DNA from: Octopus vulgaris | Lineage: Eukaryota | DNA length: 64,000 nucleotides | NCBI GenBank assembly: GCA_951406725.2 | Contig: OX597824.1 | Location: 28,582,001-28,646,000, forward strand | Reading direction: 5' to 3' | Shown: positions 1-64,000 of the stretch, in pieces | How positions within the stretch are numbered: position 1 is the first letter of the stretch | Layout: each line of letters opens with the position of its first letter | The notes under the pieces: generated by a model | What the model saw: the letters and a program-made list of their open reading frames with translations, nothing else | The model's database searches: none | What the model was told of the DNA's origin: nothing | Position numbers and translations under genes: made by a program

Positions 1-638
1 TCAGGGCCCCACCCATGCCAGGTTCGTTAACTACCCTGTCTATGATGTAGCGCATCAGATGGAGGTTGTCATGGATGGTCCGGCCTGGCACGGCGCATGT
101 TTGCGCCTTGTCGACCAGTTTCTCGATGACAAGCGCCAACCTCTTGGCTAACACCTTGGCCAAAATTTTCAAGTCTGCATTAAGCAGAGTGATGGGCCTA
201 AAGTTATCTATTACATTTCCCTTGTTTAGATCTTTCTTCAGCAGTGTTACGGCTCCTCGGCTCACAAAACCAGGAATGCTCCCGTTTTGCTGCCAGTTGC
301 AGTACACCGCCGCCAAGAGATCTCCAAACAAGTCTGGCATACAATTGTAAAGCTCGTAGGGTAGACCATCCAAACCCGGTGATTTGTCCCTCGAGCATTC
401 TGCCATCGCTTCCCGCACTTCCGCCGCCGTGATGGCACCTTCGCAGCACCCTGCCTTTCTTGTCGAGAGTCGTGGTAGGCTATGTAGGTAGGCACTGAAG
501 TCCACCCTACGTTCTTGCCCTCCACTCGTTCCGAACAGTCGGGAAAAATGCTGCTGAAAGGCCTCACACATTTTACTTGGCTCGAGCAATTCGCGCCCCT
601 GTTCATCTACCAGTGACCGAATGGTGGCTTTGTTGCCC
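1..638 (-). mobile_element. 5'-truncated Tx1/L1-clade non-LTR retrotransposon, ORF2 reverse-transcriptase region, running off the window edge
   Basis: Manual translation of the minus frame 637->2 is stop-free for 212 aa and absent from the ORF track: ...ITAAEVREAMAECSRDKSPGLDGLPYELY...GAVTLLKKDLNKGNVIDNFRPITLLNADLKILAKVLAKRL...AQTCAVPGRTIHDNLHLMR. These are L1/Tx1-type RT N-terminal motifs. The fragment abuts (GATA)n at 639. Confidence 0.9.

Positions 639-728
<90 letters not shown>
639..728. repeat. (GATA)n microsatellite
   Basis: Perfect tetranucleotide run directly at the LINE truncation point. Confidence 0.97.
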
Positions 729-4647: not shown

Positions 4648-5051
4648 GTGGCTGTGTGGAAAGTAGCCTGTCTACCAACCACAGAGTTCCGGGTTCAGTC
4701 CCACTGAGTGGCACCTTGGGCAAGTGTCTTCTACTATAGCCTCGGGCCGACCAAAGCCTTGTGAGTGGATTTGGTAGACGTAAAATGAAAGAAGCCTGTC
4801 GTATATATGTATGTATATATATATGTATATGTGTGTATATGTTTGTGTGTCTGTGTTTGTCCCCCCTAGCATTGCTTGACAACAGATGCTGGCGTGTTTA
4901 CGTCCCCGTCACTTAGCGGTTCGGCAAAACAGACCGATAGAATAAGTACTGGGCTTACAAAAAATAAGTCCCGGGGTCGATTTGCTCGACTAAAGGCGGT
5001 GCTCCAGCATAGCCGCAGTCAAATGACTGAAACAATTAAAAGCGTAAAGAG
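4648..5051 (+). mobile_element. tRNA-derived SINE, family A (CORE-like motif, internal microsatellite, CR1-like tail)
   Basis: B-box-like gggttcagtccc, ccttgggcaagtgt core and ggcggtgctccagcat..gactgaaac tail. Near-identical to 43121-43528. Confidence 0.9.
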
Positions 5052-5147
5052 TAATATCTGTAGCTAAAGAAAATTAATGTTATACCTTTTTCCAGTACTT
5101 TATATATTTTAATGTTATCGCTTTGAATAGGGAGGAAACCTAAATTT

Positions 5148-9502: not shown

Positions 9503-9726
9503 ATATTTCTTTACGACCCACAAGGAGCTAAACACAGAGGGGACAAACAAGGACAGACAAAGGAATAAGTCGATTACATCGACCCCAGTGCGCAACTGGT
9601 ACTTAATTTATCGACCCCGAAAGGATGAAAGGCAAAGTCGACCTCGGCGGAATTTGAACTCAGAACGTAACGGCAGACGAAATACAGCTACGCATTCCGC
9701 CCGGCGTGCTAACGTTTCTGCCAGCA
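9503..9726 (-). mobile_element. Family B SINE monomer with Tx1-like tail
   Basis: Reverse complement of gctggcagaaacgttagcacgccggg..gagttcaaattccgccgaggtcgac..tttagctccttgtgggtcgtaaagaaat, ending in a TA run. Confidence 0.9.
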
Positions 9727-14065: not shown

Positions 14066-14220
14066 CCTTTCTACTATAGGCACAAGGCTTTACATATTTG
14101 GTGAGAGGCTAGTCGATTATATCGGCCGCAGTCCGTATCTGGTACTTATTTCATCGACCCCGAAAGGATGAAAGGCAAAGTCGACCTCGGCAGGATTTGA
14201 AGCGTAAAAAACGGACGAAA
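14062..14220 (-). mobile_element. Family B SINE, (ATT)n-terminated tail variant
   Basis: atcctttctactataggcacaaggc..tcgaccccgaaaggatgaaaggcaaagtcgacctcggc. Confidence 0.8.
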
Positions 14221-14559: not shown

Positions 14560-14776
14560 CTCTCTTTACTTTTTTTACTCTTTTACTAGTTTCAATCATT
14601 TGACTACGGCCATGCTGGAGCACCGCCTTTAGTCGAGCAAATCTACACCAGGACTTATTCTTTGTAAGCCTAGTACTTATTCTATCGGTCTCTTTTGCCG
14701 AACCGCTAGATTACGGGGACGTAAACACACTAGCATCTGTTGTCAAGCGATACTGGTGGGGACAAAAACAGACACA

Positions 14777-14817
<41 letters not shown>

Positions 14818-15046: not shown

Positions 15047-15106
15047 AATTTATTTCAGTTAGAAAAGCTATCAGTTACATATTCATATATTCATCATAAA
15101 CCTAAA

Positions 15107-15505
15107 TCGGTGAGCTAACAAAATCTTTCTTACGTCGGGCAAAATGCGTATCGGTATTTCTTCTGCGCTACGTTGTGGGTTCAAATTCCGCCGAGGTCGA
15201 CTTTGCCTTTCATCCTTTCGGGGTCGATAAATTAAGTACCAGTTACGCACTGGGGTCGATGTAATCGACTTAATACCTATGTCTGTCCTTGTTTGTCCCC
15301 TCTGTGTTTAGCCCCTTGTGGGTAATAAAGAAATAGGTATTTCTTCCGTCTTAACACTTTCGGCACAAATTTTGTCGAGGTCGACTTCGCCTTACATTCT
15401 TTCTGAGTTGATAAATTAAGTACCAGTCGGACACTAGAGTCAATCTAATCGACTCGCCCCTCACCCAAAATTGCCGGCCATGAGCCAAAATTTGAAACTA
15501 TTATT
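15107..15505 (+). mobile_element. Nested family B SINEs: a young Tx1-tailed unit inside an older copy
   Basis: GGTATTTCTTC is duplicated at 15153-15163 and 15336-15346 around a near-consensus unit, while the flanking SINE halves are degenerate. Confidence 0.85.
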
Positions 15506-16005: not shown

Positions 16006-16097
16006 TGTGCATGTGTGCATGTGTGCATGTGTGTATATATATATATATATATACAAGTAGGTATATATCTGGCTAGCTAGCCATCTAGACAGATAAT

Positions 16098-16139
<42 letters not shown>

Positions 16140-16140
<1 letters not shown>

Positions 16141-16386
16141 GTTTCTTTATTGGCCACACAGGGCTGCACACAGATGGGACAAGTTACAAGGTAGAGCTTT
16201 TCTTTTGGGGGATGAAAAAAACAAAAAACAAAAAACAAAAAACAAAAGAAACAAAAAAAGGTGGCGTAGGTGTTCGATCAAAAGGGATCGTAAAAGGGAA
16301 AAAACAACAAAAAAAAAGAAAAGAGAAAAAGAAAAAAAGGAAAAGGAACAAAAGAAAAGAAAAATGAAAAAAGAAGAAAAAAAAGG
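16140..16386 (-). mobile_element. 3' end of a non-LTR retrotransposon inserted in (GATA)n
   Basis: The minus strand is a T-rich UTR ending cttgtcccatctgtgtgcagccctgtgtggccAATAAAgaaact followed by (TATC)n. GATA repeats lie on both sides (16098-16139, 16387-16544). Confidence 0.7.
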
Positions 16387-20082: not shown

Positions 20083-20554
20083 GTATATCACATGTCATAC
20101 AGAGGTCACATTTCCCTCGCGTCCATGCATCATATATGATACACGTTCCCATTTATGTTTTTAAACGTACCAGAGGAAGTTGGGACCCAAATAAATAAAA
20201 CTATATTACCCAGAACGTGTGAAACAAGAGCAAACAAGTCTGAAAAACAAGCGTGGACTTTTACGTGACATTTATGAAAATGCTTTAGACAAGTAAATGA
20301 TTATACTTGCTTGCAATTTCAATCCAAGTTGTTGAAATAAAATAAAGACGGAAAACGATAGCGAGAAGAGACCTTAATATCTGAAATAATGTTATTGAAA
20401 TATGAACGATTAAAGCACGCCTGGAGCCATTCAGGAAATAGAAGCTGTTACCATATGCCGCATAATTTCATTTTATTCATCGTATTGATGATCAATGTTT
20501 TGAAAAACCCCACTTTGGAGATTTGATTCTCTAGGTTATTCACCTTATATGTGA

Positions 20555-21164
20555 GTAGATTCGTTAATATGAGGTGGAATGCTAAGGCGGTTAGCTTGAA
20601 GAACAAGAAGCTAGAGGACGTCTATCCACCCTTGATGATCAGAATTTGAAATCAATATTCGAACAAAATTCACAAGAAAGCGTCAGAGAAACGTCTCATA
20701 TGCTTGGTGTTTGTAAGCAACTGGAAGAAATGAATGTACACTTGAGACCCTTGTTTGTTAATCGATGTGGGTCAATTCTGCTCCACGACAACACTCGACC
20801 GCACTTTTCCAGGATGACACTGCAGGAACTCATAGACTTGGAATACGAAACTTTGCCACCTTCTCCATATGCTCCTGATCTTTCACCCACCGACTACCAC
20901 TTTTTAAAGCATCTACACACTTTTTAAAGAAAAAAAAAACCTTGCTGTTCCCAAACCGAGGACGAAGTTGATTTTGAAGACTTCGTGGAATCAAAACCTT
21001 TGAGATTTTATCGAAGAGACATAAATGACCTTGTCCATTGATGAAATAAATGCATAGCTGCTCAGCGACCATATCTTGAATAATTAAACCATTGTATAAG
21101 TTCAGATTTTCAAAGACTATCAGCTTATTTATGAAATCGGCCATTATTTTCCGAACAACCTAAT
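20555..21164 (+). mobile_element. Mariner (DD34D) relic with right TIR
   Basis: ILLHDNTRPH..ETLPPSPYAPDLSPTDYHFLKHL. The right end ccattattttccgaacaacctaat resembles a mariner TIR. Confidence 0.88.
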
Positions 21165-25510: not shown

Positions 25511-26810
25511 TATCTGGTCATCCAAATAAGTTCCGTGCGATTTTACCTTTTTTTAAAAATTAAGTGAAATTTAATAGTATTTTAAAATGTCTAATGGAAT
25601 TAAAAATTATTTTTATGGATTTGTGTACATTTAACCTAATTAAATATCATTTTACAGAATAATAGAATTAAAATTTCTTCGATTAAAACCCTTTCTAACA
25701 TTAATTGATTAAAAACCTTTCTCCAAAGAGCATTTAAGGCATATAATGATTTATGAGTACAAAAAAAAGAAACTCTGCAGCCGAAGCGACTCGACACATA
25801 AACTGAGTTTATGGGAAAGAATGCTTGAATGAAATTACTTGCAAAAGATGGTTTGCAAAATTCAGAAATGGAGATTTCAGCCTTGAAGATAAAGATCGAA
25901 TAGGATGTCCAGTAGAGTTTGATGATAAGTTCCATACGGCATTACTTGAAGAAAATCCTGCATTATCAGTTGAAGAATTGGCAATAAAGCTTAGTTCAAA
26001 CCATACAACTGATCATCGTCATCTTCAACAACTTGGAAAGGTTCCTAAACTTGGAAAATGGGTGCCTCATGAATTGTCCGAAAGTACCCGCAAATCTCGA
26101 GTTGACATCTGTTCTTCTCTTCATTCTCGCGAACTCATTTCACCTTTGGGATAGTCTTGTGACTAGTGAAGAAAACTGGATCTTCTATCTAAATGTTAAA
26201 CGTCATAAACAGTGGCTTGATGAAAGGGAGAACGCTGAACCGAGAAGGAAACTTAATGGGAAAATGTTCTTCTCTCTATCTGGTGGGATTGCAAATGAGT
26301 AATTCATTTTGAATTGTTACCACCTAATGCAACAATCAATGCTCAAGTCTACTGTCAGCAATTAGAGCGTTTGAACGAAGCTTTGAAGAAAAAAAGACAC
26401 GCTTTAGTGAATCGAAAAGGAGCGATGTTTCATCAGGACAATGCGCGATCCTACACTGCAACGATCACATCACAGAAGATTGAAGAGTTTGGTTGAGGAA
26501 AAATTTCTCATCCACCTTATTTTCCCGACCTTGCTCCTTCAGACTACCATTTGTATGGTAGTTTACGGAATCATTTGGGGGACATAATTTTCGCAAGCCA
26601 GGAGGAGATCGAAACTGACATCTCAGAGTTCTTCGCTTTGAAACCAAAAGAATTTTACGTTGATGGGATTAAAAAGCTCGTAAATAGATGGAAGGAAATC
26701 ATAGATAATCAGGGAAAGTACATTGATGATTAAATTTCAGTTAAATATAACATTTGATCGCGTGTTTTCTTTATTCAAACTTTGGACAGAACTTATGTGA
26801 AGGCATAATA
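25511..26810 (+). mobile_element. Near full-length degenerate mariner (DD34D) element, transposase pseudogene
   Basis: About 1.3 kb with TA-bounded imperfect TIRs. Motifs: RWFAKFRNGDFSLED, LGKWVPHEL, FHQDNAR-34 aa-PDLAPSDYH, GIKKLVNRWKEIIDNQGKYIDD*. Several frameshifts and stops. Confidence 0.93.
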
Positions 26811-29232: not shown

Positions 29233-29239
29233 TATTCTA

Positions 29240-29461
29240 GTTTTAGTTATTCCACTACGGCCATTCTGGAGCACCGCCTTTTAGTCAAGCAAAATGCCCC
29301 CACGACTTATTCGTTGTAAGCATAGTACTTATTCTATTGTTCTCTTTAGCGTAACCACTAAGTCATGGGGACGTAAACACAGTAGCACTGGTTGTCAAGC
29401 GATGGTGGGGGACAAACACAGACACACAAATGTATACACACATACACACACACACACACAA

Positions 29462-29505
<44 letters not shown>

Positions 29506-31570: not shown

Positions 31571-32025
31571 TTGTATCTGAATATTGCTTTACGTGCCAAG
31601 TATTATAAAATAGGAAACGAAACTTGTTTAAATTTTCCGAGTTAATTCATTTAAAAAGCAATTCCCGTATTCATTTGCCGTTACACATTTCTATTAACAA
31701 TTTAAAATATTTACTTAAACGGGAGCGACTGTGCCAATTTCGTAGTTGACGAAGAGGAGTAACAGAAATGCATGCGTACTTAACGTAATGACGTCACTTA
31801 CTATGCACTTACTATTCATCCATTGATACGTTTTCTGACTTTAGCTCCTTTTGATATTTTGATGTCACACAAGTTTCAAGGCTGATTCGTCAGACTTTAT
31901 TTTTCAAAACACATTTTTTAATTATCTTTTATTTATTTCAGTCAGTAGACTACGGCCATGTTGGGGCTCTGCCTCGAAAAATTTTAGTCGAATTGATCCC
32001 AGAGATTTTTAATGGCTGGAACTTG
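31571..32025 (+). repeat. Direct duplication, copy 1 (about 455 bp)
   Basis: Nearly identical to 32706-33168. Confidence 0.95.
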
Positions 32026-32705: not shown

Positions 32706-33168
32706 TTGTATCTGAATATTGCTTTACGTGCCAAGTATTATAAAATAGGAAACGAAACTTGTTTAAATTTTCCGAGTTAATTCATTTAATAAGCAATTCC
32801 CGTATTCATTTGCCGTTACACATTTCTATTAACAATTTAAAATATTTACTTAAACGGGAGCGACTGTGCCAATTTCGTAGTTGACGAAGAGGAGTAACAG
32901 AAATGCATGCGTACTTAACGTAATGACGTCACTTACTATGCACTTACTATTCATCCATTGATACGTTTTATGATAGATAACACCCGAACGTGTTAAACAT
33001 GATGTCACACAATTATATTCAAGGCTGATTCGTCAGACTTTATTTTTCAAAACACATTTTTTAATTATCTTTTATTTATTTCAGTCAGTAGACTACGGCC
33101 ATGTTGGGGCTCTGCCTCGAAAAATTTTAGTCGAATTGATCCCAGAGATTTTTAATGGCTGGAACTTG
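32706..33168 (+). repeat. Direct duplication, copy 2
   Basis: Nearly identical to 31571-32025 and continues into an intact SINE. Confidence 0.95.
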
Positions 33169-35401: not shown

Positions 35402-35640
35402 TCTCTATTACTCTTTCATTCTTTTACCTGTTTCAGTCATTTGACTGCGGCCATGCTGGAGCACCGCCTTTAGTTGAGCAAATCGACCCCAGGACTTATT
35501 ATTTGTACTTATTCTATCGATCTGTTTTGCCGAATCGCTAAGTTACGGGGACGTAAACACACCACCATCGGTTGTCAAGCGATGTTGGTGGGACAAACAC
35601 AGACACACAAACATATACACGCATACATATATACATATAT

Positions 35641-35710
<70 letters not shown>

Positions 35711-35866
35711 GACGGGCTTCTTTCAGTTTCCATCTACCAAACCCACTCAGAAGGCTTTGGTTGGCCCGAGGCTATAGTAGAAAACACTTGCCCAATGTGC
35801 TACGCAGTGGGAGTGAACCCAGAATCATGTAGTTGGTAAGCAAGCTACTTACCACACAGCCACTCC
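35402..35866 (-). mobile_element. Family A SINE, full length
   Basis: Reverse complement of 43121-43528. Confidence 0.9.
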
Positions 35867-39587: not shown

Positions 39588-40131
39588 AAAAAGCCACTTC
39601 CCCCCGCCCGTCGAGGAGGGGAGGCTTATATGCTCGAGTATTAGACTATTTTCTTTAGTTAATACACGGTGATCGCTTATAAGCTTTAAGCTTATGAAAT
39701 ATTATTATTGTTATTTAGAGAATTGTAAAATACAGTACCGCTTAACAAGTCATCGCAGAAAACCCACATTATTGTTGTTCCTATCGTTGTTACTGTAACG
39801 AGAGCAGTGATTTTTCGAGAAAAAAGCCTTGCATTAATTTCAGTTCCGTATCTCTCAAACATACTTCAAACAAAGTTAGAAAGTCCAACACCAGGCACCT
39901 AGCACCTGAAATGTCGCTTAGATACTTAACAGCATCTATGGATCGAGCAATGCAATCTTCAGAGTATTCACGGTATCAATATATGCGAGACTTGTAGTTA
40001 GAAAGAACTACGAGATCCTCAGAGAAGTTCTGCACGTTGACAAGCTGAACTGGCTGGCGTTTTTGAGGAGAATTTCAAGCCGAAAGGTGCTATAATAAAC
40101 CATCAGGAAACATTCGACCGGTAATGTTGCT

Positions 40132-40270
40132 GAGATGATTAAATTTTGATTTTAGAGTGAAAGGAGATGTAATCAAGCAGCTCAAGGCAATGAATGCATT
40201 TTGAAGAAACCAATGAAATCACAATTTCTATCTATTTACATCCCCAAGTATGCATGGAATTTCAACTCTA
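40132..40270 (+). repeat. Direct repeat of about 138 bp; second copy at 42231-42369
   Basis: gagatgatt..gtaatcaagca.ctcaaggc..gaagaaaccaatgaaatcacaatttctatctattt..gcatggaatttcaactcta occurs twice. Confidence 0.9.
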
Positions 40271-40649
40271 AAATCACTGCCCCCTCGTTACAGCGTTTTT
40301 GAAGGGAATTTCAAGCTGAAAGATGCTATAGTTAACATTAGACTGGTAGTGTTACTGAGGAATATTACCGAGTCGAAAAAAATTCTACAGAATCAGAAAT
40401 CCCTTCAAATCTGCGCGAACGAGATACGAGCAACGCGACAAAATCTCTTCTTCACACACTTGTTCAATTTTCAGATATTACTGGCTTATAGAGTTATGTC
40501 AAACATCCTTGTCGTACATACTACGACTCACGTGTATCGGGAGTTCAATATCATCTACATACTTGTGTACACAAGTTTACATTATTTAATCTATCTTTGT
40601 AATATTTCCTTCATCCGGCGACCCTGTGGCAGATAAAAGAAATCAACTA

Positions 40650-43120: not shown

Positions 43121-43528
43121 AGGCGCAGGAGTGGCTGTGTGGTAAGTAGCTTGCTAAACAACCACATGGTTCCGGGTTCAGTCCCACTGCGTGGCATCTT
43201 GGGCAAGTGTCTTCTGCTATAGCCCCGGGCCGACCAATGCCTTGTGATTGGATTTGGTAGACGGAAACTGAAAGAAGCCTGTCGTATATATGTATATATA
43301 TATGTATGTGTGTGTGTGTTTGTGTGTCTGTGTTTGTCCCCCTAGCATTGCTTGACAACCGATGCTGGTGTGTTTATGTCCCCGTCACTTAGCGGTTCGG
43401 CAAAAGAGACTGATAGAATAAGTACTGGGCTTACAAAGAATAAGTGCCGGGGTCGATTTGCTCGACTAAAGGCGGTGCTCCAGCATGGCCGCAGTCAAAT
43501 GACTGAAACAAGTAAAAGAGTAAAGAGT
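43121..43528 (+). mobile_element. Family A SINE, full length and young
   Basis: aggcgcaggagtggctgtgtggtaag head, gggttcagtccc B box, CORE-like motif and CR1-like tail ending aaagagtaaagag. Confidence 0.93.
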
Positions 43529-43534
43529 ATACCA

Positions 43535-51044: not shown

Positions 51045-51448
51045 ATATATTCTTTGCCACTCTATGCACAAGGTCCGAAATTTTGGGAGAGGAGACCAGT
51101 CGATTAGACCGATCCCAGTACGCAACTGGTATTTCATTTATAGACCCCGAACGGATGAAAGTCAAAGTCGACCTCGGTGGAATTTGAACTCAGAACGTAG
51201 AGGCAGACGAAATACCTATTTCTTTACTACCCACAAGAGGCTAAACACAGAGAAGACAAACAAGGACAGACAAACGGATTAAGTCGATTATATCGAACCC
51301 AGCGCGTAACTGGTACTTAATTTATCGACCCCGAAAGGATGAAAGGCAAAGTCGACCTCGGCGGAATTTGAACTCAGAATGTAATGGCAGAAGAAATACC
51401 ACTAAGCATTTCGCCAGGCGTGCTAACGTTTCTGCAAGCTCGCCGCTT
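51045..51448 (-). mobile_element. Family B SINE dimer or nest
   Basis: Head, Tx1-tailed unit, junction aaagaaata|ggtatttcgtc, then a second body with the alternative tail. Confidence 0.9.
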
Positions 51449-51532
51449 TATATATTATATATATGTTGTGTATACATTATGTGTGTATGTAGATATTGAT
51501 ATACATATATATATATATATATATATTTACAT

Positions 51533-51570
<38 letters not shown>

Positions 51571-52215
51571 GGCTATATAGATTTAGATATAGATATATAA
51601 TGTATATAATTATGTGTGTGAGTGTGTTTGCATATATATCTATTTAAATAAATACTTAGTCGTTTTTGACACGCTTCTGCATAATCGTGTTATTATTTTA
51701 CAAGTCTAATTTACCAAAGTGCGTGGATACACTTTGCTTGATAATACGCGTGTCACATGATAAAACACGGCATGACACCAGCAAGGCCCTGAATCCCTTA
51801 ACTACAAGAACAACGACTATGTAAAGTACGTATCTTATTACACTGTACAGCAACAACAACACAGGATAGAAAGGAAACTACGAGTAGGGCAAAGCCAATA
51901 TAATTAATAGTGAAAAATAAAACTAGGACATGAAGAAGCCAAATAGCACACATTTTAAGAGGAAATGAATTAATCTGAACACAAGCGTAACAAAAGAAAC
52001 TTGACTAAAACCCAGCAGGAACGGGTTCTGTTATATGAATAAAAAAAATATTATTTAAAGAAGTGATGATGGTGTGATGATGGTGTGAGAGCCTTTAAAC
52101 TAATTAAATTATGTTTGCATTCCAGATACATTGTAGAAGAGATTTAATTAAATTGTAATGGAAAGATATTAATAAAATGATCCATGCATTTCTTTAAGTA
52201 TTGTCGCACACTTAT

Positions 52216-53478
52216 TAAGGCGGCGAGCTGGCAGAAACGTTAGCACGCCGGGCCGAGTGAAATGGTTAGCAGTATTTCGTCTGTCGCTACGTTCTGAGTT
52301 CAAATTCCGCCGAGGTAGACTTTGCCTTTCATCGATTAAATAAGTACCAGTTATGCACTGGTGTCGATGTAATCGACTTAATCTGTTTGTTTCTTCCCTC
52401 TGTGTTTATCCCCTTGTGGATGGTAAAGAAATAGGTATTTTGTCTGCCGTTACGTTCTGAGTTCAAATTTCGCCGTGGTCGACTTTGCCTTTCACCCTTT
52501 CGGCGTCCTTCAATTAAGTACCAGTTACGCACTGAGGTCGATGTAATCGACTTAATCCGTTTGTCTGTCCTTGTTTGTCTTCTCTTTGTTTGACCCACAA
52601 GGGGTCAAACAAAGAGAGGACAAACAGAAAAAGGTATTTCGTCAGCCGCTACGTTCTGAGTTCAAATTCTGCCGAGGTCGCCGTTGCCTTTCATCCTTTC
52701 GGGGTCGATAAATTAAGTACCAGTTACGCACTGAGGTCGATCTAATTGACTTAATCCCTTTGTCTGTCCTTGTTTGTCCTCTCTATTTTTAGCCCCTTGT
52801 GGGCACTAAAGAAATAAGAACTCTTATCGTGCCGGACAAAATTATTAGCGACATTTCGTCCGTCTTTACGTTCCGTGTTCAAATTTACTCAAGGTCGATT
52901 TTGTTTTTTAGCTTTTCGGGTTTGATATAAGTTCCAGTTGAACATTGCGTCTTATGTAATCGACTTACTCCCTCTGCTGAACTTGCTGGCCTTGTGCCAA
53001 ATTTTGAAACGAATATTTGATACATAAATAACGCGACGTTCTGACAAAATTGCTAGCGCGCCGGACAAAATTCTTAGCGTCATTTCGTCCGTCTTTACGT
53101 TCCGAGTTCAAATTCAGTCGAGGTCAACTTTGCCATTTATCCTTTTGGGTTTGATAAAATCAGTTCCAGTTGAACATTGCGTCTTATGTAATCGACTTAC
53201 TGCCTCTCCCGTACTTGCTGGCCTTGTGCCAAATTTTGAAACCAATATTTTATTCATAAGTAAGGCGACGTGCTGACAAAACTACTAGCACGCGGGACAA
53301 AATATTTAGTGGTGTTTCGTCCATCCTTACGTCCCGAGTTCAAATTCAGCCGAGGCTGACTTTGTTCTCCATCATTTCGAGGTCGATAAAATATATACCA
53401 GTTGAACAAATGAGTTGATGTAATCGATTCATGCCTCACCCAAATTTGCTGCCCTTGTGCCAAAAATTGAAATCAATG
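52216..53478 (+). mobile_element. Head-to-tail array of six family B SINE units
   Basis: Three young Tx1-tailed units (52216-52815), then three older units (about 52816-53020, 53030-53252, 53262-53478). Confidence 0.9.
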
Positions 53479-56809: not shown

Positions 56810-57397
56810 TTGGTCCCAATTTGCGGGAAGAACATAAATCGATTACATCGACCCCAGTGTTCTACTACTACTTATTTTACCGACGCGAAAAGGGATGAAG
56901 GGTAAAGTCTACCTCAGTGACATTTCAACTCGGAACATAAAGACTGATGAATTGCCGTCCAACATTTAGCCCGGCGTGGTAATGATTCCGCCAGATCGCT
57001 GCCTTTCTACTACAGGTACAAGGCCCGAAATTTGGGGGAGGGGACTAGTCGATTAAATCAACCCGTGTTTGAAGGTACTTAATTTATCGACCCTGAAAGG
57101 ATGAAAGGCAAAGTTGACCTCGGCGGAATTTGAACTCAGAACGTAGCGGTAGAAGAAATACCTATTTCTTTACTACGCACAAGAAGCTAAACACAGAGAC
57201 GACAAACAAAGACAGACAAACGTATTAAGTCGATTATATCGACACCAGTGCGTAACTGGTACTTATTTAATCGACACCGAGAGGATGAAAGGCAAAGCCG
57301 ACGACGGCGGAATTTGAACTCAGAACGTAACGGCAGACGAAATACCGCTAAGCATTTCGCCCGGCTTGCTAACGTTTCTGCCAGCTCGACGCCTTAA
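56810..57397 (-). mobile_element. Family B SINE cluster: old monomer 56810-57003 plus dimer 57004-57397
   Basis: Same aaagaaata|ggtatttc junction near 57162. Confidence 0.88.
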
Positions 57398-58089
57398 TGA
57401 CATTCTTATTATTGTTTATCATTAACAAACTGAAAGAGAATATTTACAAAATAACGGAACTATTATTAGCAAAATAAATACGTGCCAAAACGTCTTCATT
57501 AATTTCGAATATAAAATCCTTTCTGCTATAGGCACAAGGCCTGAAATTGTGGGAGAGGTGGTTAATCAATTACATTGAATAACCACTTTTCCCACAATAA
57601 GTAGCTGGTATTAATTTCATCGATCACGAATTGAAAGATAAAATATATATTTACATATACACGCCCGCGTGCGTGTGAGAGAGAGAGAGTGTTTGTGTGT
57701 ATGTGTTAGATTCATCCGTATCGTTGAAGAAGTTTTACAGAGAATTGGAGGAAAGAAAGGACATGCAAAGTGAAAGGAAGAGCTCTGAAATCGAACTAGT
57801 TACCTGAGAAACGCAAACATAAGACCGCCCCGTCTGACAAAGCTGAACCAACAGTGGTGCCACTTGCTACGAACAGAACAGGATAGCAACGGCCTAAAGA
57901 AAATGTGGACTATGCAAGCCTAGAGACAAGTTGCCTTCAATTTTAAGAAATCACAAAGGACCGCTCTGTAGTAGAGCCTTCCGATGAGGAGTCGGATTGA
58001 TTGGCCACGGCCGGACACACTTCTCCAATGTTATGTCCTTGGTCATTGTCGACTATACAGACGAATTATGAATAATAGTAATAATAATT

Positions 58090-58440: not shown

Positions 58441-58449
58441 TTTAGTAAT

Positions 58450-58667
58450 AATAATCTTTTCTAGTTAAGGCAGGAGGCCTGAATTTTGGTGGGAGGGGGA
58501 AAATCGATTACATCGACCCTAGTACTCGACCGGTGTCTATTTTATCGAACACAGAAGGATGAAAAGCAAGGTCAATCTTAGCAGCATTTGAACACAGAAT
58601 ATCAAGAGGGACGAAATACTGGTAGGCATTTTGCGAGGCGTGTTAACGATTCTGGCAGCACGCCATC
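58450..58667 (-). mobile_element. Degenerate family B SINE
   Basis: aatcgattacatcgaccc..gaaggatgaaaagcaaggtcaa..ttaacgattctggcagc. Confidence 0.75.
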
Positions 58668-58705
58668 TTGATGATGAGGATGATGCTAATAATAATAATA
58701 ATAAT

Positions 58706-59972
58706 GTGCAGAGGTACCAAAGATCAACTCCTAGTAGACAAAACTGTACTTATAGACTGCAAGAGGAGGGAGACTAATGCCTCCAAGTCATGGATCGATT
58801 ATCGTAAGGCGTACGATATTATGGAATGCATGAACGTATTTGGTATTGCATCGAATGTTGAGCGATTGCTTGGAAAATGTATGGCGAAATGGTGGATGGA
58901 ACTGACTGATTCTGAGGAAAGCAAAGGCTGGGTATGTATTCAAGAGCCGCCAACGCGAAGACAAGCACTTTTTATTCATGGATGACGTCCAAATTTATGA
59001 TAAAGATGAATCCTAAGTCAATTTCCTCGTTGATACGGTGTATACTTTCAGCGCTGATATCAGAATGGAGTTCGGACTGAAAAAGAGAGACGTGTTAGCC
59101 TTGAAGAGAGGTAAAATCAAATGTATGGACGGGCTAGCGATACCGTCGGGGAAAGTTATAAAGTAGATAGAAGAGACAGTCTATAAGCACGTGGGGATAT
59201 TGTACAGATTGATGGAAAAAGAAATAGCCAAAAAATTTAAAGTGGAATACTTGTGCAAACTGAGACTGATACTTAAGACGAAATCAAACGGACGGAATAA
59301 GATTGAAGCTATCAACACCTGGGTGGTTTTACTCCTTAGATATGAATCAGAGGTATCGCATGGAGAGTAGACAAACTAAACAGCTTAGACAGAAAGACAA
59401 GGAAGTTGCTGACAAGATATGGTATACTCCACCTAAAAAGTGACACAAACATACTGTTTGTACCACGAAAAAGCGGGGGAAGAGGACTGATTGGATATGA
59501 ACACAGCATTAGAGCAGAATAAAACAATATAGCATGGTATGTAAAGATACCACGGAACCGCTATTATTGGACGTAAGAAGGTCAGGCTTGCGTAACATGA
59601 AAGATGGCAAAGATAAAGCATTGTACAAGTACTTGGAGATGAATGAAACTGGAAATAGGTGGGTAAAGAAAAGAATGCACTGACAATTTCAAAGGGATGT
59701 TGAAGATAAGACAGACAGAGAAAAAAGATGATTATGGATGACTAAAAGTCATTTAAAACTGGAAGGTCTAATCTCTGCTGCTCAAGAGCAAGCATTAAGA
59801 ACCAGTTACATCTAATACAGAATAGATAAAACATCAGAATGTGATAAGTACAGTATTTGTAGACAAAATAGAGAAACCGTATGACATATTACCAGTAAAT
59901 GTACGCCAATAACCCAGAAAGAATATAATAGATGTCATGATAACATTAAGGGTTGTCCATTGTACACTTTGC
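58706..59972 (+). mobile_element. Decayed R4/Dong-type (RLE) non-LTR retrotransposon fragment flanked by (AAT)n
   Basis: [67 protein letters not shown], a decayed CCHC and an RHD-like motif. Many stops and deletions. Confidence 0.85.
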
Positions 59973-63472: not shown

Positions 63473-64000
63473 GGGGTTGGACAAAATAACGAAAACACCA
63501 AGTATCATAGCATCATAATTTTGAAATAACTATAAAACCGCCAAAAGCCTGTTTATTTTTATGTATTTTTATTTATTATTAGTGTTGCTTAATACGTTTT
63601 GCTAAAATTGCTGTTTCTATTCAGATATCATCAGAAAAATGTAATTAAAAATTCATTAAAATGACTGACCTATTTGACTTTCAAAGAGGTCAAATTGTTG
63701 ATGCTCGTATGGTAGGCGCAAGTGTAACGAAAAGAGCCGAAATGTTTGGTGTATCAAAAAGTACTGACTCGAAAGTAATGACGGCCTTTGAAAAAGAGGG
63801 AAAAAAACTCCTCGTCGAAACAAAACTCCGGAAGAAAGCCAAAAGTTTCTGATAGGGACCGTCGAATTCTTACGCGAATTGTTAGAAAGGATCACAAAAG
63901 TACAGCTTCCAAAACTACTGCAGAGCTTAATGACAACCTCGAGAACCCAGTTTCCACAAGAACTGTTCGCGGGGAGTTGCACAAAGCCGGATTTCACGGG
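63471..64000 (+). mobile_element. Tc1-family transposon, 5' part with frameshifted transposase N-terminus
   Basis: Left TIR CAGGGGTTGGACAAAATAA after (TA)n. MTDLFDFQRGQIVDARMVGASVTK.. then, after a frameshift, NSGRKPKVSDRDRRILTRIVRKDHKSTA..VSTRTVRGELHKAGF (paired-type HTH and GRPR-like motif). Confidence 0.9.

What the first reader, a model, noticed from the sequence alone, without database searches (positions are those of the whole stretch)
1..728. Young Tx1-type LINE truncated exactly at a (GATA)n microsatellite
Seen: a stop-free 212-aa RT frame on the minus strand begins immediately after (TATC)n, and it is the only uncorrupted TE coding sequence in the window. Known: Tx1-clade elements are often sequence-specific; Kibi and Koshi target TC and TTC microsatellites. 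Inference: this is a recently active family that targets GATA repeats, a target I do not know to be described in cephalopods.
Basis: partly seen in the sequence, partly recalled or inferred. Interest (0 to 1): 0.7.

Follow-up and report, generated by a model that had tools for sequence, protein, structure and literature searches.

The report
Cephalopod LINE likely targeting GATA repeats
A young, front-truncated jumping-gene copy of the L1/Tx1 type starts right at a GATA repeat, and a second retroelement stub sits inside another GATA repeat, so this cephalopod family likely inserts into GATA repeats, a new target for an already known habit.

Summary
Observation confirmed. Window 2-637 (minus) is a stop-free 212-codon piece of a LINE ORF2 (linker plus start of RT). 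It begins one base after a perfect (TATC)22.5 tract, about 370 codons into ORF2, and no upstream part lies in the window. Its closest relatives (57-71% identity, including Argonauta) have the endonuclease-RT-zinc-finger layout of the L1/Tx1 group. It is young: 41 of 41 invariant residues are kept, implying under about 2-3% decay.

One junction alone is weak evidence (chance 1.5-9%). That it belongs to the same family is not shown. A sister lineage inserts at a fixed site but has no GATA flanks.

GATA targeting is likely (about 0.7), not proven: the RT copy's 3' end lies outside the window, no eukaryote genome was searchable, and no named Tx1/Kibi/Koshi sequence entered the tree. Microsatellite-targeting Tx1 elements are known; the motif and lineage appear new.

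The parts
2..637 (-). 5'-truncated LINE ORF2 fragment (EN-RT linker and N-terminal RT), 212 codons, continuing off the window edge
   Evidence: aligns to residues 373-584 of 1096 in Argonauta P0427 and 143-356 of 912 in P0121
638..638 (-). Junction base (G on minus strand); likely third base of the preceding codon (Arg in 4 of 5 full relatives), otherwise untemplated
   Evidence: inference
639..728 (-). Perfect (TATC)n/(GATA)n tract, 22.5 units, 5' flank of the RT copy; inferred left half of the target
   Evidence: 100% matches
16140..16385 (-). T-rich 246-bp stub ending in AATAAA plus five bases, no poly(A); inferred 3'-UTR-only, 5'-truncated LINE copy; family link to 2-637 not shown
   Evidence: negative links
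16142..16191 (-). Terminal 50 nt of the stub, homologous to the 3' tail of a SINE monomer in the window
   Evidence: 80% over 50 nt, 44.6 bits, E 1.5e-7; best of 300 shuffles 31.0 bits
16387..16544 (-). (TATC)n tract, 39.5 units, 5' flank of the stub
16086..16139 (-). (TATC)n tract, 13.5 units, 3' flank of the stub
15287..15333 (+). Best SINE tail copy matching the stub's 3' end (supporting feature; others at 9506-9552, 51219-51265, 52768-52814, 57165-57223, 52374-52431)

Best explanation
This is a young, 5'-truncated copy of a cephalopod L1/Tx1-group LINE that likely inserted into an existing (GATA)n repeat, and its family likely prefers such repeats. Shown: the frame, the junction, the lineage, the missing front part, low decay, and a second retroelement 3' stub inside a (TATC)n tract in the same orientation. 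Inferred from established target-primed reverse transcription: the endonuclease of an intact parent would nick the GATA strand, reverse transcription would start at the RNA 3' end from that nick and stop early (about 370 codons into ORF2 here; within the 3' UTR at 16385), and the cDNA would be joined to the other half of the tract, leaving (TATC)n on the sense strand at both ends. The copy itself lacks ORF1 and the endonuclease and cannot move on its own. Prediction: a 3' end like 16140-16191 followed by (TATC)n lies about 1.9 kb or more before window base 1.
For: Lineage: 69% identity to P0121, 57-71% to Argonauta hians proteins, 46% to a cuttlefish protein; full relatives carry Exo_endo_phos + RVT_1 + zf-RVT; best solved structure is L1 ORF2p, E 1e-50, against R2 at 4e-22. 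Tree: the window groups with 6 relatives (group A, SH-aLRT 100), sister to group B (100) (quick tree). Truncation: no EN or ORF1 match elsewhere in the window. Youth: 41 of 41 invariant columns kept; joint chance of that and an open frame falls to 0.05 at 2% (with indels) to 3% (without) divergence. Second insertion. Sister lineage is site-specific: head-to-tail arrays, and both distinct 5'-truncated junctions found start 17 nt behind the previous copy's AATAAA, as full-length units do; no poly(A). Precedent: Kibi (TC)n, Koshi (TTC)n, crocodilian Tx1 (TTCC)n/(TTTC)n (PMC4494074, passages and section 15).
Against: Only one junction belongs certainly to this family, and chance adjacency is 1.5% for AGAT-class and 8.7% for any microsatellite. 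The stub was not linked to Tx1: profiles of group B 3' ends miss it, a profile of the stub/SINE tail misses group B ends (best E 8.5), and it lacks their two hairpins (z +1.56 against -1.9 to -2.6); only a post-hoc 16/19 match to one of four subfamilies supports a link. Neither of the 2 SINE monomers that end in the shared tail is followed by (TATC)n. 0 of 41 fetched loci of relatives hold three or more TATC/GATA units. No homologous protein among 273 carried a (TATC)n-derived peptide tract, and a search with the stub's junction peptide gave 1 hit at E 7.6; both tests are insensitive.
Confidence: 0.68

Rival explanations
1. Chance: an unspecific or weakly AT-preferring L1/Tx1 element landed in one of the many GATA tracts, or survived there, and the stub at 16140-16385 comes from another family.
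For: AGAT-class repeats are the second commonest microsatellite here (969 of 5555 bases). No test linked the stub to Tx1. SINEs with the stub's tail are not in (TATC)n. Other active octopus LINE groups exist, Dong-R4 being the commonest (PMC13282606 Table 1), and Dong elements target microsatellites (PMC3812793 passage).
Against: Two retroelement pieces at the same motif in the same orientation in 64 kb; the tract at 639-728 is pure and the only one of 13 running into complex sequence; the sister lineage is site-specific.
Confidence: 0.2
2. Same outcome by another mechanism: the endonuclease is not sequence-specific; transcripts read through into flanking (TATC)n and pair with nicked (GATA)n, steering insertions to these tracts. 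This is a variant inside the best explanation, not exclusive of it.
For: The stub has no poly(A) and runs directly into (TATC)n. PMC1950540 (abstract, passages) reports that endonuclease nicking is less specific than integration and that other factors contribute.
Against: Established view that the endonuclease mainly sets the target in Tx1-type elements (PMC4494074 introduction passage). The specificity loop differs between groups A (8 residues in 4 of 4) and B (8-11 in 7), in line with different targets.
Confidence: 0.25
3. The junction is secondary: a longer copy lost its front by a deletion or recombination ending in the microsatellite, or another element with a (TATC)n tail inserted into ORF2, or the assembly joined two loci at the repeat.
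For: Target-site duplications cannot be read in a perfect repeat; the far end is not visible.
Against: No EN or ORF1 remnant in the remaining 63 kb; the DNA beyond the tract (729-1000) matches nothing but simple repeats and has no AATAAA end; the copy is young, leaving little time; a misjoin inside the repeat would still need an RT-(TATC)n junction.
Confidence: 0.1

Closest known systems
Kibi and Koshi (fish Tx1 clade; (TC)n and (TTC)n) and crocodilian Tx1 families in (TTCC)n/(TTTC)n
   Same: APE-type L1/Tx1-group LINE found in a short T/C-containing microsatellite (targets from PMC4494074 passages and section 15; PMC3812793 passage).
   Different: Motif is (TATC)n, contains A; host is a cephalopod-like genome; the lineage sits on a long branch of its own, so targeting may be independent. 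Relationship to Kibi/Koshi untested.
Group A cephalopod ORF2s (Argonauta GAB1606090.1, GAB1597330.1, GAB1601854.1; unnamed P0121, P0122, P0423)
   Same: Same lineage, 57-71% identity, SH-aLRT 100.
   Different: Annotated only as hypothetical proteins; no flanks available; none above about 71% over 100 or more residues, so the window copy is a distinct family.
Group B elements (P0125, P0182; arrays in contigs of record CAXXMW01, loci L001-L037, L040, L041)
   Same: Sister lineage, 42-48% identity; ORF1 with CCHC knuckle, ORF2 EN-RT-zf; ends at AATAAA without poly(A); fixed insertion point.
   Different: Head-to-tail arrays behind their own 3' end, two 3' hairpins, no GATA/TATC flanks.
Octopus L1-Tx1 annotation class
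   Same: O. vulgaris has 80 L1-Tx1 families, 13 recently active with 421 insertions (PMC13282606 Table 1 and supplement row), so a young copy is ordinary.
   Different: The part read (first third of the text) gives no targets, and the supplement has no occurrence of 'target' or 'microsatellite'.

Membership tests
L1 group (L1/Tx1) non-LTR retrotransposon | ORF2 with APE endonuclease, RT and C-terminal zinc finger | tested here: met
   In close relatives P0423 and P0427; the window copy holds only linker and RT start
L1 group (L1/Tx1) non-LTR retrotransposon | RT and endonuclease closer to L1 than to other clades | tested here: met
   L1 ORF2p E 1e-50 vs R2 4e-22; EN hits only L1-EN and its chimeras at E under 0.001. 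PDB holds few clades, so the comparison is coarse
Tx1 clade | RT phylogeny grouping with named Tx1 elements (Tx1L, Kibi, Koshi, Keno, Dewa) | not testable with these tools
   No named reference was retrieved; the tree has unnamed outgroups only
Tx1 clade | ORF1 with CCHC zinc knuckle rather than Transposase_22 | tested here: inconclusive
   Met in the sister group (L005 ORF1, zf-CCHC E 1e-5; criterion from PMC5203782 passages); no group A ORF1 available
Tx1 clade | Target preference (over 20% of flanks of one type) | tested here: inconclusive
   1 certain junction and 1 unlinked stub; sister group site-specific
Kibi / Koshi | Insertion into (TC)n or (TTC)n | tested here: not met
   Flank is (TATC)n; not filed as Kibi or Koshi, though it likely works like them
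Target-specific TPRT insertion | Target sequence at both ends of the same copy | not testable with these tools
   3' end of the RT copy is outside the window; met only for the stub 16140-16385
Recently active family | Copies within about 2% of a consensus and intact full-length members | tested here: inconclusive
   Decay bound of 2-3% for one copy; no sibling above about 76% identity

The most novel reading that the evidence does not exclude
Octopods carry a recently active, independently evolved Tx1 lineage whose endonuclease targets (GATA)n, whose 3' end was captured as the tail of an abundant host SINE, and whose sister lineage targets its own 3' end to build head-to-tail arrays; together they would be a natural switch of target inside one cephalopod clade and a driver of GATA-repeat turnover.
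Probability: 0.35. Interest if true: 0.55.

Novelty: new variant of a known kind. Interest (0 to 1): 0.4.

Why it matters
If true it adds (GATA)n to the short list of microsatellites targeted by APE-type retrotransposons and extends the habit to cephalopods. Groups A and B would give a pair of related endonucleases with different targets, useful for asking how target choice evolves and as raw material for site-specific integration tools. In practice, GATA microsatellite markers in these animals could be interrupted or flanked by polymorphic insertions. It does not change the known mechanism of retrotransposition.

Tried and rejected
Linking the stub to Tx1: nhmmer and covariance model of 11 group B 3' ends gave no hit at 16140; reverse profile gave none on 11 units; folding showed no shared hairpins; the modelled hairpin showed no covariation beyond shuffles (78 of 500). 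Exact search of the stub end in bacterial/archaeal genome contigs: 0. Reading flanks of other copies through spurious (TATC)n-derived peptides: no tract among 273 homologues (one isolated 4-residue match inside an ORF2); junction-peptide search 1 hit at E 7.6, judged chance; Atlas uninformative. Names for a tree: 30 look-ups gave only 'hypothetical' or 'unnamed' labels. The careful tree did not finish; the quick tree is used. Rfam 0 hits, ARAGORN 0. A weak tblastn signal near 39900-40500 (E 0.005-0.03) was not accepted as family sequence. Nested insertion with the front half nearby was rejected. No structure or complex was predicted, as the window copy lacks the endonuclease. Literature: 10 searches showed no GATA/TATC-targeting Tx1; Repbase and Dfam were not searchable, Kojima and Fujiwara 2004 was not read, and figure 3 and the supplements of PMC4494074 (which list targets) could not be seen. 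Metagenome and viral contig collections stayed unchecked.

Full report
Observation. The minus strand holds a stop-free frame from 637 to the window edge, 212 codons. A perfect (TAGA)22.5 array spans 639-728. One base, 638, lies between them. Pfam RVT_1 matches only residues 136-197, so the frame is mostly the linker between endonuclease and RT. Among frames of 110 codons or more, the four other transposon remnants I recognised all carry stops or frameshifts.

Identity. The best relatives are unnamed P0121 (69%) and P0122 (67%) and Argonauta hians hypothetical proteins (57-71%); a cuttlefish protein gives 46%. The host is therefore likely an octopod (inference). Near-complete relatives P0423 and P0427 carry endonuclease, RT and zf-RVT domains. 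Against solved structures P0423 hits L1 ORF2p at E 1e-50 and R2 at 4e-22. A quick tree of the window plus 64 selected proteins, out of about 440 fetched by then, puts the window in a 7-member group A (SH-aLRT 100), sister to a 12-member group B (100 for the pair), on a long branch (the careful search did not finish). No named Tx1, Kibi, Koshi, Keno or Dewa sequence could be retrieved. 'Tx1' therefore rests on the L1-group result and on the CCHC-knuckle ORF1 of group B (criterion from PMC5203782, passages), not on a direct test.

Truncation and age. The fragment starts at residue 373 of 1096 of P0427, and no endonuclease or ORF1 match exists elsewhere in the window. All 41 columns invariant among 17 relatives are kept; 3 of 92 group A invariant columns differ, against 0-17 in leave-one-out controls. 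In simulation, an open frame with 41 of 41 kept has probability 0.05 at 2% divergence with indels, or 3% without. The copy is young, with the caveat that it was picked for being intact. No near-identical sibling was found, so current activity is not shown. Young L1-Tx1 copies are ordinary in octopus: 13 families, 421 recent insertions (PMC13282606, first third of the text and one supplement row).

Chance. Perfect AGAT-class runs cover 1.5% of the window and all perfect microsatellites 8.7%, so one junction is only suggestive. Of 13 (TATC)n loci, this is the only one whose 3' side is complex sequence.

A second insertion. At 16140-16385 the minus strand reads (TATC)n, a 246-bp T-rich stretch ending in AATAAA plus five bases with no poly(A), then (TATC)n again. 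Its last 50 nt match the 3' tail of an abundant SINE monomer at 80% (44.6 bits, E 1.5e-7; best of 300 shuffles 31.0), and the match stops where both end. SINE tails derive from LINE 3' ends (PMC5786205 and PMC5804259, passages), and the stub has a T-rich region in place of the SINE body. I read it as a LINE copy truncated within its 3' UTR, inside a (TATC)n tract, in the same orientation to the repeat as the RT copy. Its family is not established. Group B 3'-end profiles miss it, the reverse profile misses group B, and it lacks their hairpins. Only a post-hoc 16/19 match, first of 144 AATAAA sites and present in 1 of 4 subfamilies, points to Tx1. Neither of the 2 SINE monomers ending in this tail is followed by (TATC)n.

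Sister lineage. A scan of prokaryotic genome contigs returned 41 loci, 39 from one assembly that evidently contains host DNA; many overlap. They are same-strand, head-to-tail arrays of roughly 6.4-6.9 kb two-ORF elements. Units end at AATAAA without poly(A) (51 ends matched). Both distinct 5'-truncated junctions begin 17 nt behind the previous copy's AATAAA, where full-length units also begin, so group B inserts at a fixed site. None of the 41 loci has three TATC or GATA units. Site specificity thus exists in the clade, but the GATA target is not shared. The endonuclease loop that influences specificity (PMC1950540, abstract and passages) has 8 residues in 4 of 4 group A proteins and 8-11 in 7 group B proteins.

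Mechanism. By established target-primed reverse transcription, an intact parent's endonuclease would nick the GATA strand; cDNA synthesis would start at the RNA 3' end, stop early, and be joined to the other half of the tract. This predicts (TATC)n on the sense strand at both ends, as seen for the stub, and a 3' end about 1.9 kb or more before base 1 for the RT copy (556 codons remain in P0121, plus UTR). The nick phase cannot be fixed from one 3' junction. My estimate that the family prefers (GATA)n is about 0.7; chance is about 0.2 and a secondary junction about 0.1. Pairing of read-through (TATC)n RNA with the target is an alternative route to the same preference.

Known work. Tx1-clade elements in microsatellites are described: Kibi (TC)n, Koshi (TTC)n, crocodilian families in (TTCC)n/(TTTC)n (PMC4494074, passages and section 15; PMC3812793, passages; PMC4640811 and PMC3747384, passages). 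PMC8967140 and PMC10294476 (passages) list L1-Tx1 in cephalopods and molluscs without targets. Ten searches showed no GATA-targeting Tx1. Repbase, Dfam, the 2004 source paper (not read) and the figure and supplements of PMC4494074 were not visible and could already hold one. The label Nin/Deu for the SINE body is recalled, not from a call.

Verdict. A real, young, truncated L1/Tx1-group LINE; GATA targeting likely but unproven; a new variant of a known kind; interest 0.4.

Noticed in passing
   Followed up: yes
window 57495-57573, 58447-58511, 57009-57044, 14072-14107, 51058-51094, 52977-53008, 53213-53240 and others: The second tail type of the window's abundant SINE resembles the 3' end of group B elements (nhmmer E 3e-4 and 5e-4, covariance model E 2e-4 and 5e-3; most of the top hits fall at the same SINE position). 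Either a LINE-SINE partnership or a captured SINE end.
   Followed up: partly
window 15084-15485, 51068-51450, 57018-57396, 52214-52816: The SINE occurs as dimers or tandem runs of monomers with two different tails; body recalled as Nin/Deu-like.
   Followed up: partly
L001-L037, L040, L041 (record CAXXMW01, contigs of 13-94 kb): A bacterial genome record labelled Arenicella holds at least 17 contigs with head-to-tail arrays of intact eukaryotic LINEs of several subfamilies, same strand within each locus: host contamination of the record, and an array form reminiscent of telomeric retrotransposon arrays. One related protein cluster has 732 members.
   Followed up: partly
L038 97-2475 and L039 5668-8403: Two further prokaryotic records contain eukaryotic LINE ORF2 sequence with microsatellite-rich flanks, likely contamination; P0031, labelled Escherichia coli, is a group A-like fragment.
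   Followed up: no
window 25600-26700, 20300-21100, 63560-64000, 58650-59300: Decayed Mariner-like, Mariner-like, Tc1-like and RT-like coding remnants with stops or frameshifts.
   Followed up: partly
window 31571-32025 and 32706-33168: A 463-bp direct duplication at 95% identity, about 1.1 kb apart.
   Followed up: no
window 4648-5053, 43131-43529, 35406-35863, 14574-14796, 29237-29504: A second abundant interspersed repeat with an internal (TA)n/(CA)n tract.
   Followed up: no
window 52584-52626: An inverted partial copy of the SINE tail next to a forward copy, forming a local fold-back inside the SINE cluster.
   Followed up: no
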